Below are positions 1,762 through 61,003 of a stretch of DNA of 64,000 nucleotides, piece by piece (within the stretch, counting starts at the first letter, position 1; every line of letters begins with the position of its first letter). Source of the DNA: Eledone cirrhosa (lineage: Eukaryota); contig OZ024764.1 of assembly GCA_964016885.1 (NCBI GenBank), positions 11,904,001 to 11,968,000 of the forward strand, in the 5' to 3' direction. Below the pieces are notes generated by a model, which saw only the letters and a list, made by a program, of their open reading frames with translations, had not been told where the DNA came from and did no database searches. The position numbers were made by a program, and so were the translations under genes.

Positions 1762-1914
1762 CTGTGGTTGGGTCCATATCAAAGACCCCTTGGTTCTGTA
1801 TATTCCGCCTACGTACTATTAATACTAGTATAACAACCACAGTTATACACACAGCAAATGCGACACACACACCAATATACATGGCCATGTTGTTTGATTC
1901 TTCCGCTTCTCCGG
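1762..1914 (-). CDS. unc5: UNC-5-like transmembrane exon
   Basis: gtatatttcag|CC...ACAG|gttagt, 153 nt, phase 1-1. AGEAEESNNMAMYIGVCVAFAVCITVVVILVLIVRRRNIQNQGVFDMDPTT is a hydrophobic helix followed by an RRR stop-transfer, similar to the UNC5 xALYxG TM start. Confidence 0.9.
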
Positions 1915-2280: not shown

Positions 2281-3320
2281 AGAGATTCTTTCCTGAGACA
2301 TTCTAACCACATGTCTGTAGTATCAGAGCTGTGATCTCTCAATTCAGAGATTCTTTCCTGAGACATTCTAACCACATGTCTGTAGTATCAGAGCTGTGAT
2401 CTCTCAATTCAGAGATTCTTTCCTGAGACATTCTAACCACATGTCTGTAGTATCAGAGCTGTGATCTCTCAATTCAGAGATTCTTTCCTCAGACATTCTA
2501 ACCACATGTCTGTAGTATCGGAGCTGTGATCTCTCAATTCAGAGATTCTTTCCTGAGACATTCTAACCACATGTCTGTAGTATCAGAGCTGTGATCTCTC
2601 AATTCAGAGATTCTTTCCTGAGACATTCTAACCACATGTCTGTAGTATCGGAGCTGTGATCTCTCAATTCAGAGATTCTTTCCTGAGACATTCTAACCAC
2701 ATGTCTGTAGTATCAGAGCTGTGATCTCTCAATTCAGAGATTCTTTCCTGAGACATTCTAACCACATGTCTGTAGTATCAGAGCTGTGATCTCTCAATCC
2801 AGAGATTCTTTCCTGAGACATTCTAACCACATGTCTGTAGTATCAGAGCTGTGATCTCTCAATCCAGAGATTCTTTCCTGAGACATTCTAACCACATGTC
2901 TGTAGTATCAAAGCTGGTATCTCTCAATTCAGAGATTCTTTCCTGAGACATTCTAACCACATATCTGTAGTATCAGAGCTGTGATCTCTCAATTTAGAGA
3001 TTCTTTCCTGAGACATTCTAACCACATGTCTGTAGTATCAGAGCTGTGATCTCTCAATCCAGAGATTCTTTCCTGAGACATTCTAACCACATGTCTGTAG
3101 TATCAGAGCTGTGATCTCTCAATCCAGTGATTCTTTCCTGAGACATTCTAACCATATGTCTGTAGTATCGGAGCTGTGATCTCTCAATCCAGAGATTCTT
3201 TCCTGAGACATTCTAACCACATGTCTGTAGTATCAGAGCTGTGATCTCTCAATTCAGAGATTCTTTCCTGAGACATTCTAACCACATGTCTGTAGTATCA
3301 GAGCTGTGATCTCTCAATTT
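2281..3320. repeat. 65-bp minisatellite, ~16 copies
   Basis: Unit agagattctttcctgagacattctaaccacatgtctgtagtatcagagctgtgatctctcaattc. Confidence 0.95.
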
Positions 3321-5774: not shown

Positions 5775-5846
5775 CATCTGGATTATTAATGTTGTTGTTG
5801 TTGTTGTTGATGTTTTTATTGGGTTCACCTCCTTGAAAGTTTCTAG
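5775..5846 (-). CDS. unc5: Putative 72-nt juxtamembrane stalk exon (ARNFQGGEPNKNINNNNNNINNPD)
   Basis: tgctccatttcag|CTAGAAAC...CCAGATG|gtgagt. Phase 1-1, 24 codons, open in the frame that links TSP1-2 to the TM exon. Confidence 0.7.
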
Positions 5847-8345: not shown

Positions 8346-8375
8346 CATCAGTAGGATTCACATAGACTACAGCAC
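8346..8375 (-). CDS. unc5: Putative 30-nt stalk microexon ([10 protein letters not shown])
   Basis: attctttctctcttttaag|GTGCTGTAGTCTATGTGAATCCTACTGATG|gtgagt. Phase 1-1, open. A unique island between two microsatellite fields. Confidence 0.72.
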
Positions 8376-11206: not shown

Positions 11207-13328
11207 GCCAGCTCAGCGCCTATGGTGGTGAGTAGGGAGGTAGACCTAGGGCCGAGGACACCAGAAGTCTCCACTGCTACAGGTAGCCAGCTCAGCGCCT
11301 ATGGTGGTGAGTAGGGAGGTAGCCCTAGGGCCGAGGACACCAGAAGTCTCCACTGCTACATGTAGCCATCTCTGCACCTATGGTGGTAAGTAGGGAGGTA
11401 GCCCTAGGTCAAAGGACACCAGAAGTCACCACTGCTACAGGTAGCCAGCTCAGCACCTATGGTGGTGAGTAGGGAGGTAGCCCTAGGGCCGAGGACACCA
11501 GAAGTCTCCACTGCTACAGGGAGCCAGCTCTGCACCTATGGTGGTGAGTAATGAGGTAGCCCTAGGGCCGAGGACACCAGAAGTCACCACTGCTACAGGT
11601 AGCCAGCTCTGCACCTATGGTGGTGAGTAGGGAGGTAGCCCTAGGGCCGAGGACACCAGAAGTCTCCACTGCTACAGGTAGCCAGCTCAGCGCCTATGGT
11701 GGTGAGTAGGGAGGTAGCCCTAGGGCCGAGGACACCAGAAGTCTCCACTGCTACAGGGAGCCAGCTCTGCACCTATGGAGGTGAGTAATGAGGTAGCCCT
11801 AGGGCCGAGGACACCAGAAGTCACCACTGCTACAGGTAGCCAGCTCTGCACCTATGGTGGTGAGTAGGGAGGTAGCCCTAGGGCCGAGGACACCTGAAGT
11901 CTCCACTGCTACAGGTAGCCAACTCTGCACCTATGGTGGTAAGTAGGGAGGTAACCCTAGGGCCAAGGACACCAGAAGTCTCCACTGCTACAGGTAGCCA
12001 GCTCTGCACCTATGGTGGTGAGTAGGGAGGTAACCCTAGGGCCAAGGACACCAGAAGTCTCCACTGCTACAGGTAGCCAGCTCTGCACCTATGGTGGTGA
12101 GTAGGGAGGTAACCCTAGGGCCAAGGACACCAGAAGTCTCCACTGCTACAGGTAGCCAGCCCAGCACCTATGGTGGTGAGTAGGGAGGTAACCCTAGGGC
12201 CGAGGACACCAGAAGTCTCCACTGCTAGAGGTAGCCAGCTCAGCACCTATAGTGGTGAGTAGGGAGGTAGCCCTAGGTCAAAGGACACCAGAAGTCTCCA
12301 CTGCTACAGGTAGCCATCTCTGCACCTATGGTGGTAAGTAGGGAGGTAGCCCTAGGTCAAAGGACACCAGAAGTCTCCACTGCTACAGGTAGCCATCTCT
12401 GCACCTATGGTGGTGAGTAGGGAGGTAGCCCTAGGGCCGAGGACACCAGAAGTCTCCACTGCTACAGGTAGCCAGCTCTGCACCTATGGTGGTAAGTAGG
12501 GAGGTAGCCCTAGGGCCAAGGACACCAGAAGTCTCCACTGCTACAGGTAGCCAGCTCTGCACCTATGGTGGTAAGTAGGGAGGTAGCCCTAGGGCCAAGG
12601 ACACCAGAAGTCTCCACTGCTACAGGTAGCCAGCTCTGCACCTATGGTGGTGAGTAGGGAGGTAGCCCTAGGGCCGAGGACACCAGAAGTCTCCACTGCT
12701 ACAGGTAGCCAGCTCTGCGCCTATGGTGGTGAGTAGGGAGGTAGCCCTAGGGCTGAGGACACCAGAAGTCTCCACTGCTACAGGTAGACAGCTCTGCACC
12801 TATGGTGGTGAGTAGGGAGGTAGCCCTAGGGCCGAGGACACCAGAAGTCTCCACTGCTACAGGTAGACAGCTCTGCACCTATGGTGGTGAGTAGGGAGGT
12901 AGCCCTAGGGCCGAGGACACCAGAAGTCTCCACTGCTACAGGTAGACAGCTCTGCACCTATGGTGGTGAGTAGGGAGGTAGCCCTAGGGCCAAGGACACC
13001 AGAAGTCTCCACTGCTACAGGTAGCCAGCTCTGTGCCTATGGTGGTAAGTAGGGAGGTAGCCCTAGGTCAAAGGACACCAGAAGTCTCCACTGCTACAGG
13101 TAGCCAACTCTGCACCTATGGTGGTAAGTAGGGAGGTAGCCCTAGGTCAAAGGACACCAGAAGTCTCCACTGCTACAGGTAGCCAGCTCTGCACCCATGG
13201 TGGTGAGTAGAGAGGTAGCCCTAGGGCCGAGGACACCAGAAGTCTCCACTGCTACAGGTAGCCAACTCTGCACCTATGGTGGTAAGTAGGGAGGTAGCCC
13301 TAGGGCCAAGGACACCAGAAGTCTCCAC
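11207..13328. repeat. 79-bp GC-rich minisatellite, ~27 copies
   Basis: Unit gccagctctgcacctatggtggtgagtagggaggtagccctagggccgaggacaccagaagtctccactgctacaggta. Confidence 0.95.
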
Positions 13329-45858: not shown

Positions 45859-46026
45859 CTGGGCACAGCGCGTTACAGGAAGTTTTCTGGATGGTGTCTC
45901 CGTGACAGGTCATGCCCCCGTTTAAGGGTGCTGGGTTGGAACACGACCTCATCCTTTTCTGTAAGCCTCGGCCACACTTCACGGAACATTCCGTCCACTG
46001 GCTCCATGTTGACCATCCTCCATCCA
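45859..46026 (-). CDS. unc5: UNC-5-like exon, thrombospondin type-1 repeat 1
   Basis: accacag|TG...CCAG|gtaaga, 168 nt, phase 1-1. [56 protein letters not shown]. Confidence 0.96.
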
Positions 46027-47047: not shown

Positions 47048-47228
47048 CAAAAACTGTGAGCATGGCGGCTTTACTGAGACGTTTACTGGCAAGATTCTGG
47101 GCTCCACACGTATAGTTACCCATGTCGGAGAGCTGGGCCTGGTTGATAATGAGGCTGTTGTCATGAGAGTTAATAAGGTTGACATCCTTGGCAAAGTCCA
47201 CCAGTTGACCATCCTTCAGCCAAAATAC
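47048..47228 (-). CDS. unc5: UNC-5-like exon, second part of Ig domain 2
   Basis: ttacag|GTA...TTTG|gtaagg, 181 nt, phase 0-1. VFWLKDGQLVDFAKDVNLINSHDNSLIINQAQLSDMGNYTCGAQNLASKRLSKAAMLTVF carries the Ig I-set W and DxGxYxC motifs. Confidence 0.95.
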
Positions 47229-56959: not shown

Positions 56960-57063
56960 CTCAGGATGTGGATCCCCATCCGGTGGAAGGCACGCTAACT
57001 GTATGGTGTCTTCGACCTTCACAAATGTGCTTATGGGGTCTCGATAAAACCTTTTCTTTAGAT
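56960..57063 (-). CDS. unc5: UNC-5-like exon, first part of Ig domain 2
   Basis: tctctag|AT...GAG|gtaagt, 104 nt, phase 1-0. YLKKRFYRDPISTFVKVEDTIQLACLPPDGDPHPE matches the UNC5 pattern YLRKxF...CxPPEGxPxxE. Confidence 0.93.
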
Positions 57064-60541: not shown

Positions 60542-61003
60542 ATGATTTGCGTATAATCCCTTCGTTGCTGACCACTGCCCGGTCAGGAGCTGTTTTAGAC
60601 TTCCGGTTCCACGCGTGGCAGTTGCACGAGTAGTCATCGTTGCCGAAGTAGGCGTCCACCTCCTCCCGCGTCACCTCAATGCTGGTGATCAAGTACTTCC
60701 CGCCGCTCTTCGGGTCGGTCACCTCCACCTTGGACATGCTGCGCAGGGGTATCACCTGTCCGCTGCACTGGAACTGCACGTTGGTGGCACTGGTCACGTG
60801 GCAGCTGACCAGGGCCGGCTTGTGCCTCAGCACGTAGTAGACGCTCTCCGGCTGTTTCGTGAACACCGGAAGGTCGCTGCCGGCGGCCACCCCTCCGCGG
60901 ACGGTTCCTGTCTCTCCTCCTCCTCCACCTCCTCCCCCTCCGCCTGTGTCATCCCCTCCCCCACCGCCTCCTCCTTGGCCGGCAGCCATTGGAATGAAAA
61001 CAC
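60542..61003 (-). CDS. unc5: UNC-5-like netrin receptor, exon encoding Gly-rich N-terminal segment + Ig domain 1
   Basis: Acceptor ttcctcag| and donor T|gtaagt, phase 1-1, 462 nt. Translation (G)VFIPMAAGQGGG...DLPVFTKQPESVYYVLRHKPALVSCHVTSATNVQFQCSG...SIEVTREEVDAYFGNDDYSCNCHAWN...IIRKS resembles UNC5 Ig1. Confidence 0.93.

What the first reader, a model, noticed from the sequence alone, without database searches (positions are those of the whole stretch)
8346..8375. 30-nt microexon between TSP1-2 and the TM helix
Seen: a 30-nt unique island with strong splice sites, wedged between ACAG/CA repeats and (TA)n, encoding [10 protein letters not shown] in frame. It ends GATG|gtgagt exactly like the 72-nt exon (NPTD vs NPD), hinting at old exon duplication or mutually exclusive use. 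Known (from memory, to verify): vertebrate UNC5B has a short NOVA-regulated alternative exon at the equivalent juxtamembrane position. Inference: convergent or ancient alternative splicing of the UNC-5 stalk. With the 12- and 72-nt exons, up to 8 in-frame ectodomain isoforms are possible.
Basis: partly seen in the sequence, partly recalled or inferred. Interest (0 to 1): 0.7.

Follow-up and report, generated by a model that had tools for sequence, protein, structure and literature searches.

The report
Conserved cephalopod UNC-5 stalk microexon
A 30-letter exon hidden between simple repeats adds ten amino acids just outside the membrane of an octopus-type nerve-guidance receptor (UNC-5); the same peptide occurs in other cephalopods, the exon is likely optional, and it would likely control whether the receptor's outer part can be clipped off, as a similar short exon does in mouse UNC5B.

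Summary
The exon is real. Minus strand 8375-8346 is 30 nt, phase 1-1, codes [10 protein letters not shown] and lies between the TSP1-2 and TM exons of the only intact UNC5 gene found in the genome. Octopus sinensis RefSeq XP_029652297.2 has it (9/10 identical). Two unnamed, more distant cephalopod cDNA proteins have it too (6/10). Contigs of a spliced run stop where a branch at the TM exon predicts, so forms with and without a GATG-ended exon are inferred; no read was seen on the 30-nt exon itself. Two first-reader hints fail: the exon occurs together with a third stalk block, and it is no more like the 72-nt exon than control exon tiles are. In/out cassettes of unrelated sequence fill the same slot in gastropods, bivalves, a nemertean, amphioxus and sharks. 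Best mechanism (inferred): the exon lengthens a 16-residue acidic stalk to 26 residues and adds an Ala-Val site, allowing ADAM shedding as UNC5B exon 8 does. Verdict: new cephalopod member of a known kind.

The parts
8346..8375 (-). 30-nt stalk exon, phase 1-1, [10 protein letters not shown]; acceptor AAG after 15/16 pyrimidines and a 367-nt AG-free stretch; donor ATG|GTGAGT
   Evidence: peptide in O. sinensis XP_029652297.2 (9/10) and unnamed P0175/P0334 (6/10)
5775..5846 (-). 72-nt stalk exon ARNFQGGEPNK(N-run)NPD; TGC at -13; 22 YCAY in the 250 nt upstream; absent from the O. sinensis model; probable counterpart is a 16-aa block in P0175/P0334
37264..37275 (-). 12-nt microexon DGHQ after TSP1-1; TGC at -16; identical peptide in P0175/P0334
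20433..20600 (-). TSP1-2 exon, 168 nt, phase 1-1, weak donor GTATAT; absent from P0175/P0334 and from annotated isoforms of several other animals
45859..46026 (-). TSP1-1 exon, 168 nt
1762..1914 (-). TM exon (acidic AGEAEES, then the TM helix); covered by spliced contigs of run X1, both alleles ending at 1915
47048..47228 (-). Ig2 exon b
56960..57063 (-). Ig2 exon a, 104 nt
60542..61003 (-). Ig1 exon, Unc5 N-terminal domain PF25609

Best explanation
This is a real, cephalopod-conserved 30-nt exon of the UNC-5 netrin receptor that is likely optional and would likely act as a shedding switch by lengthening the stalk next to the membrane. Shown from sequence: without it and the 72-nt exon, 16 residues (4 acidic) separate the last TSP cysteine from the Tyr before the TM core. 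With it there are 26, with an uncharged Ala-Val-Val-Tyr-Val patch whose Ala-Val bond lies 21 residues out. With the 72-nt exon as well there are 50, and the bond moves to 45. Inferred by analogy to mouse UNC5B: the short form keeps a folded TSP domain and acidic residues where ADAM proteases cut, so it would resist shedding. The 30-nt form would be cut by an ADAM17-type protease, releasing the ectodomain and changing the response to netrin. The 72-nt exon would retune the distance.
For: Exon reality: window peptide against the P0175 stalk: 0 of 5000 shuffles; P0175/P0334 group with O. sinensis at 100/100. Its 6/10 identity to the distant cephalopod is like that of Ig1 (55%), although the AlphaFold model of P0175 has pLDDT under 50 for most of 296-334. 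Alternative use: run X1 is spliced (its loose end is the next exon, 4.8 kb away). Its two 84-nt allele contigs are reproduced only when the TM exon is joined both to a GATG-ended and to an AG-ended upstream sequence; single isoforms give 88 and 30-nt plus 72-nt gives 87. Mechanism precedent: only long UNC5B (33-nt exon in) is shed, cut 16 residues from the membrane, partly by ADAM17, and acidic substitutions block it (PMC12480741). ADAM17 prefers Val at P1' (PMC4376770 passages). The genome has an ADAM17 membrane-proximal-domain match above cut-off. Short forms leave 13-15 residues in sawfish, shark, amphioxus and two gastropods, 16 here, but 22 in Tubulanus.
Against: No read or contig was seen on the 30-nt exon in this species, and the GATG-ended partner in X1 could be the 72-nt exon alone. 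The 84-nt length is also given by a retained intron as the AG-ended partner, although X1 has no depth in the intron at 1916-1957; assembler pruning or an unknown exon could give it too. Both cephalopod relatives include the exon, so skipping of it is nowhere seen directly. The Ala-Val bond lies at 21, not 16; position 16 falls at Asn-Pro, and Pro at P1' is disfavoured. In P0175 the patch sits about 37 residues out and reads Ala-Tyr-Val. In the same paper the 27-nt AXL stalk exon did not change shedding, so stalk exons need not be switches. All shedding data are from mammalian cells overexpressing tagged protein, and endogenous UNC5B shedding was not seen.
Confidence: 0.4

Rival explanations
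1. Real optional exon that works as a flexible spacer: it changes how netrin binding is passed to the ZU5-UPA-death domains, or the receptor's reach and geometry with DCC and other partners, without any cleavage.
For: UNC5B lacking exon 8 still binds netrin and dimerises but ignores its survival signal; the authors propose lost linker flexibility (PMC8358048). The stalk is low-confidence and without secondary structure in the model. Cassettes in this slot share no sequence across lineages, which fits length mattering more than sequence.
Against: The 30-nt peptide is hydrophobic and conserved (6/10), while the neighbouring stalk block keeps 3 of 16 residues; a pure spacer need not keep its sequence. 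PMC12480741 suggests the UNC5B signalling difference may itself come from shedding.
Confidence: 0.28
2. The peptide is a short binding motif (an extended hydrophobic strand) for a cis partner or for the TSP domain, specific to cephalopods.
For: The G-A-x-V-x-V-x-P-x-D pattern is kept in all three cephalopod versions and survives loss of the preceding TSP1-2 exon.
Against: No strand is predicted and confidence is low (only 3 of the 50 aligned rows hold the peptide, so the model is weak here). No partner is known.
Confidence: 0.15
3. Real but constitutive exon in cephalopods: it supplies a minimal stalk, and only the 72-nt, 12-nt and TSP1-2 exons vary.
For: All 3 cephalopod proteins found that reach the stalk include it. 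Long pyrimidine tract and near-consensus donor; no TGC next to the acceptor and no YCAY cluster.
Against: The X1 contig ends need an AG-ended sequence joined to the TM exon, and no intron cover is seen, which points to transcripts lacking both stalk exons.
Confidence: 0.13
4. Chance exon-like island, not spliced in.
For: Exon-like segments arise by chance in this gene (1 antisense candidate and an unsupported 18-nt sense candidate).
Against: The peptide stands at the same place in O. sinensis RefSeq and in assembled cephalopod cDNA proteins.
Confidence: 0.03

Closest known systems
Vertebrate UNC5B exon 8 (33 nt; PMC8358048, PMC12480741)
   Same: Short frame-keeping exon between TSP1-2 and the TM exon, coding a disordered stalk; short form about 13 residues, long form about 24 (sawfish).
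   Different: No sequence likeness (sawfish cassette is basic, NKKLLSEPKTS; here hydrophobic). UNC5B exon 8 has an upstream YCAY cluster; this exon has 1 YCAY in 250 nt. The cephalopod gene has two stalk exons plus a 12-nt exon.
Vertebrate UNC5C stalk exon (19 aa in sharks; UNC5C is named in the juxtamembrane screen of PMC12480741)
   Same: Same slot, in/out isoforms, also combined with loss of TSP1-2.
   Different: Longer, unrelated sequence.
Juxtamembrane skipping exons that set shedding (CADM1, ALCAM, UNC5B; 174 human and 105 mouse candidates in PMC12480741)
   Same: Small exon upstream of the TM exon of a type I membrane protein.
   Different: Here the 72-nt exon can stand between it and the TM exon; shedding is untested in any cephalopod.
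eMIC/SRRM3-4 neural microexons (PMC8797185)
   Same: Weak AAG acceptor, long AG-free zone, UCUC-rich pyrimidine tract.
   Different: No UGC next to the acceptor and no branch-point match within 60 nt; 30 nt is above the usual 27-nt limit (limit recalled). The 12-nt exon fits this class better.
Gastropod and bivalve UNC5 stalk cassettes (RefSeq isoforms)
   Same: Same slot; Gigantopelta, Haliotis, Patella and Babylonia have two cassettes, as cephalopods do.
   Different: No convincing peptide match: 4 of 185 non-cephalopod stalks at p<0.01, about 2 expected; best score 24.7 against 39.7-43.7 for the cephalopod rows that built the profile.

Membership tests
UNC5 netrin receptors | Ig-Ig-TSP1-TSP1-TM ectodomain | tested here: met
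   PF25609 on the Ig1 exon and TSP_1 on both TSP exons; PDB hits are all UNC5 (7 of 7); nine joined exons are open for 449 aa
UNC5 netrin receptors | Cytoplasmic ZU5-UPA-death module downstream | tested here: met
   exons matching O. sinensis residues 288-568 at 82-95% lie 12-21 kb beyond the window on the same contig and strand; these residues hold ZU5 and UPA; the death-domain exon was not located
Alternative (cassette) exon | Frame-neutral with canonical splice sites | tested here: met
   30 nt, AG/GT, phase 1-1; all 7 combinations translated are open
Alternative (cassette) exon | Inclusion and skipping both seen in transcripts | tested here: inconclusive
   inclusion seen in relatives; skipping inferred from contig ends only
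Mutually exclusive exon pair (30-nt / 72-nt) | Never included together | tested here: not met
   P0175 and P0334 carry both blocks; orthology of the second block is positional
Mutually exclusive exon pair (30-nt / 72-nt) | Homologous sequence from tandem duplication | tested here: not met
   score 16, reached by 18% of base shuffles, 34% of codon shuffles and 21 of 31 control tiles; flanks 14/40 and 10/40 identical
NOVA-skipped exon like UNC5B exon 8 | YCAY cluster upstream of the exon | tested here: not met
   1 YCAY in 250 nt upstream, gene median 2; the 72-nt exon has 22, reached by 9 of 234 tiles
eMIC/SRRM4 neural microexon | UGC close to the 3' splice site | tested here: not met
   none in the last 30 nt; present for the 12- and 72-nt exons
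eMIC/SRRM4 neural microexon | Long AG-free zone, UCUC-rich tract, weak 3' site | tested here: met
   367 nt, 4 TCTC/CTCT, AAG; the AG-free length comes from the (TA)n repeat
eMIC/SRRM4 neural microexon | Neural-specific inclusion | not testable with these tools
   no tissue-resolved reads were available
Ortholog of vertebrate UNC5B/C/D exon 8 | Sequence homology | tested here: not met
   no vertebrate stalk among the 20 best of 188; short disordered exons may diverge beyond detection
Ortholog of vertebrate UNC5B/C/D exon 8 | Same intron position and phase | tested here: inconclusive
   same place in the protein; the genomes of the other animals were not read
Shedding-switch juxtamembrane exon | Isoform-dependent ectodomain release | not testable with these tools
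   needs a cell assay

The most novel reading that the evidence does not exclude
The intron between TSP1-2 and the TM exon of UNC-5 is a bilaterian-wide hot spot. Lineage after lineage has evolved unrelated short cassettes there that toggle a 13-16-residue uncleavable stalk into a 24-50-residue sheddable one. Cephalopods built a combinatorial version (12-nt, TSP1-2, 30-nt and 48/72-nt exons) that sets netrin-receptor shedding and signalling cell by cell.
Probability: 0.3. Interest if true: 0.6.

Novelty: new member of a known kind. Interest (0 to 1): 0.38.

Why it matters
UNC5B exon 8 changes netrin dependence and shedding in vertebrates and was described as conserved among vertebrates. Short in/out exons at the same place in molluscs, a nemertean and amphioxus suggest that stalk length is a general control point of UNC-5. 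The cephalopod gene is a natural test because three small exons and a TSP exon are all frame-neutral. The exon is already inside an O. sinensis RefSeq model. Four searches found no paper that, by its listing, treats cephalopod UNC5 splicing, but the library lacks most subscription papers and bioRxiv supplements could not be read.

Tried and rejected
No run on record as RNA was listed; X1 was recognised as spliced only after laying. X1-X3 are one study and may include the source of the assembly. Junction-level evidence at the upstream exons was not obtained, so the identity of both partners of the TM exon in X1 stays open. A word-index protein search with the Ig1 exon found nothing. The representative search found 293 proteins, none above 46% identity among the 150 listed. 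The ESM Atlas gave no result. A third protein search from P0175 found no further cephalopod full-length UNC5 among the 120 listed of 235. Exon duplication and mutual exclusion were rejected. A homologous peptide outside cephalopods was not found; the best match, Mytilus californianus GSSTLSNPSD, is not kept in other Mytilus sequences. The AlphaFold model says nothing on stalk structure. An UNC5 UPA fragment with a stop on contig C2 holds no stalk exons in the 3.2 kb read. No earlier scan note lies near. Against a universal slot: no stalk cassette among listed members for Lineus (4), Ptychodera (2), two horseshoe-crab paralogs (15 and 11), lampreys (12), Antedon (4) or the 10 insect proteins.

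Full report
Observation. The reverse complement of 8346-8375 is a 30-nt segment between ttctttctctcttttaag and gtgagt, read in phase 1 as [10 protein letters not shown]. It is a 66-nt unique island between (TA)n and ACAG/CA repeats and occurs once in the genome at up to 2 mismatches. Under a rule-based scan of the 58.6-kb gene span it is the only candidate at 14 of 16 pyrimidines (antisense 0), and one of 3 at 12 of 16 (antisense 1); the rule was set after seeing the exon, and a YAG-only rule misses it because its acceptor is AAG.

The gene. The window is G000:C25:11904001-11968000 of a 3.0-Gb genome. Nine minus-strand exons from Ig1 to TM join into an open frame of 449 aa. Ig1 matches PF25609 and 7 of 7 PDB hits are UNC5. 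ZU5/UPA exons follow beyond the window. A search with a mussel UNC5 found this locus and one UPA fragment with a stop on C2 as the only UPA-type matches among 35 rows, under a stricter first look. Identity to Octopus sinensis is 89% (TSP1-2) and 96% (TM exon), so the organism is inferred to be an octopod. The exon lies 12,057 nt after TSP1-2 and 2,499 nt before the 72-nt exon.

Conservation. O. sinensis XP_029652297.2 (P0164) reads MCRDG-GAVVLVNPTD-PGEAEDS: 30-nt peptide in (9/10), 72-nt exon out. It is a computed RefSeq model whose read support I could not see. Two unnamed Logan proteins, P0175 and P0334 (937 aa on contigs of 4-6 kb, seen on 2 and 32 contigs, hence spliced), read ALCP-DGHQ-GAYVLVDPSD-(16 aa ending PD)-ASEAES: 12-nt peptide identical, TSP1-2 absent, 30-nt peptide 6/10, and a third block present. 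They group with O. sinensis at 100/100 in a 21-row tree of the last 480 residues and are 55%, 80% and 83% identical to the window's Ig1, TSP1-1 and TM exons; a squid or cuttlefish is my inference. The window peptide scores above all 5000 shuffles of either stalk. These two proteins are 99% alike, so cephalopod support is two independent lineages.

Alternative use. Three runs of one study hold the TM exon. X2 and X3 cover exon and introns. X1 covers 1762-1915 only, and its loose end is the next exon 4.8 kb downstream, so it is spliced. Its two allele contigs are both 84 nt and stop at 1915. In a k=31 graph simulation of 41 isoform sets, single isoforms give 88, 30-nt plus 72-nt gives 87, two AG-ended partners give 85, and 84 appears only when a GATG-ended exon and an AG-ended sequence both precede the TM exon. 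The AG-ended partner may be TSP1-2, the 12-nt exon or the intron, and X1 has no depth in the intron. The simplest reading is that transcripts with and without stalk exons coexist. This does not say which GATG-ended exon is used, and no contig on the 30-nt exon was seen.

Duplication and mutual exclusion. The shared ending is GAT plus a consensus donor. The local DNA score between the two exons (16) is matched by 18% of base shuffles, 34% of codon shuffles and 21 of 31 tiles of other exons; the flanks are unrelated. In O. sinensis the next residue is Pro, not Ala, which implies a different last base or boundary. Co-inclusion in P0175/P0334 argues against mutual exclusion, given that the 16-aa block is the counterpart of the 72-nt exon (3 identities, 58 of 3000 shuffles, 8 extra residues in the Asn run).

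The slot in other animals. From listed cluster members (at most 15 a cluster), 7 of 8 non-cephalopod lophotrochozoan groups show in/out stalk blocks on a constant background: Mytilus, oysters, Gigantopelta, Haliotis, Patella, Biomphalaria and Babylonia; Lingula loses one only together with TSP1-2. In a second set 4 of 13 groups do: amphioxus (15 aa), Tubulanus (9 aa), shark UNC5B (11 aa) and UNC5C (19 aa). Fish and frog UNC5D show long and short forms across species. Lineus, Ptychodera, two horseshoe-crab paralogs, lampreys, Antedon, one UNC5A and the insects show none. These are mostly computed RefSeq isoforms, and exon boundaries are inferred from protein. The cephalopod peptide has no clear relative among 185 other stalks (4 at p<0.01, about 2 expected). 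Repeated gain at a permissive phase-1 intron is favoured; one ancient exon diverged beyond recognition cannot be excluded.

Regulation. UNC5B exon 8 is 33 nt and is skipped through NOVA2 binding to an upstream YCAY cluster (PMC8358048: listing, passages and first part of the Discussion). The 30-nt exon has 1 YCAY upstream; the 72-nt exon has 22 and the 12-nt exon 15 (9 and 13 of 234 tiles reach these; repeats supply many of them). Fly eMIC exons have weak 3' sites, long AG-free zones, UCUC tracts and a nearby UGC (PMC8797185, four passages). The 30-nt exon has the first three and lacks the UGC; the other two small exons have it. Its regulator is unresolved.

Mechanism. In mouse only the long UNC5B is shed, between Asn361 and Asp362, 16 residues from the membrane, partly by ADAM17; acidic residues block the cut, and the short form has TSP at that distance (PMC12480741, parts 1-3 of 5). 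Here the stalk is 16 residues with 4 acidic when both exons are skipped, 26 with the 30-nt exon, 40 with the 72-nt exon and 50 with both. The exon supplies Ala-Val, and ADAM17 prefers Val at P1' (PMC4376770, six passages). An ADAM17 domain match exists in the genome (one 41-residue match). Against: the bond lies at 21 (45 with the 72-nt exon; about 37 in P0175), position 16 is Asn-Pro, the Tubulanus short form is already 22 residues, and the AXL stalk exon had no effect on shedding. The fold of P0175 on 50 rows leaves the stalk unstructured at pLDDT under 50. I give shedding 0.40, spacer 0.28, binding motif 0.15, constitutive exon 0.13, not an exon 0.03.

Novelty. The kind is known from vertebrates and the exon sits unremarked in a RefSeq model. 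Searches for microexon plus octopus (4 papers), unc5 plus cephalopod plus netrin (4), octopus plus unc-5 plus splicing (2) and unc-5 isoforms (15 of 28 listed) showed, by title and abstract start, nothing on cephalopod UNC5 splicing. bioRxiv 10.64898/2026.09.05.749416 (three passages) has no UNC5 in its main text; its supplements were not readable. Verdict: new member of a known kind, interest 0.38.

Noticed in passing
window 37275-37264 (-): 12-nt exon DGHQ, identical in the distant cephalopod proteins, with TGC at -16 and no AG in about 1.5 kb upstream: the best eMIC-type microexon of the gene. Other animals have unrelated in/out blocks at the same TSP1-1/TSP1-2 linker (Mytilus 6 aa, oysters 3 aa, Lineus 6 aa, horseshoe crabs 10 aa).
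   Followed up: partly
window 20600-20433 (-): TSP1-2 exon has a weak GTATAT donor and is absent from P0175/P0334 and from isoforms of Gigantopelta, Haliotis, Patella, Babylonia, Lingula, Tachypleus, Antedon and shark UNC5C; listed Biomphalaria and Aplysia proteins have one TSP only.
   Followed up: partly
window 5846-5775 (-): 72-nt exon holds an AAC run (poly-Asn) that accounts for the 8 residues by which it exceeds the 16-aa block of P0175; a TCAC-rich repeat directly upstream gives 22 YCAY, a NOVA-like layout.
   Followed up: partly
window 17836-17819 (-): 18-nt in-frame exon-like segment (tag / gtaagt) in the TSP1-2 intron; not in any homologue seen; probably chance.
   Followed up: partly
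L008 (G000:C2:76040765-76040935, -): Isolated UNC5 UPA-exon copy with a stop codon and flanking similarity to the C25 locus: a duplicated genomic fragment.
   Followed up: partly
window 26341-25669 (-): Internally deleted mariner/Tc1-like transposase remnant (family label recalled, from the translation and the terminal repeats seen).
   Followed up: no
window 60993-60907 (-): Gly-rich run (GGA/GGC repeats) at the start of the Ig1 exon, not present in P0175; the signal-peptide exon was not found in the next 10 kb.
   Followed up: partly
window 11207-13328 and 2281-3319: Highly homogeneous intronic satellites (79 nt x 27, 95%; 65 nt x 16, 97%).
   Followed up: no
P0001-P0010: Unnamed proteins of 645-1816 aa with 2-6 stretches matching the UNC5 Ig1 domain; P0010 has tandem Ig1-Ig2 repeats and no TSP.
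   Followed up: no
window 1862 and 1889: Two linked alleles in the TM exon, both present in spliced run X1; X2 and X3 contigs show the non-reference one.
   Followed up: yes
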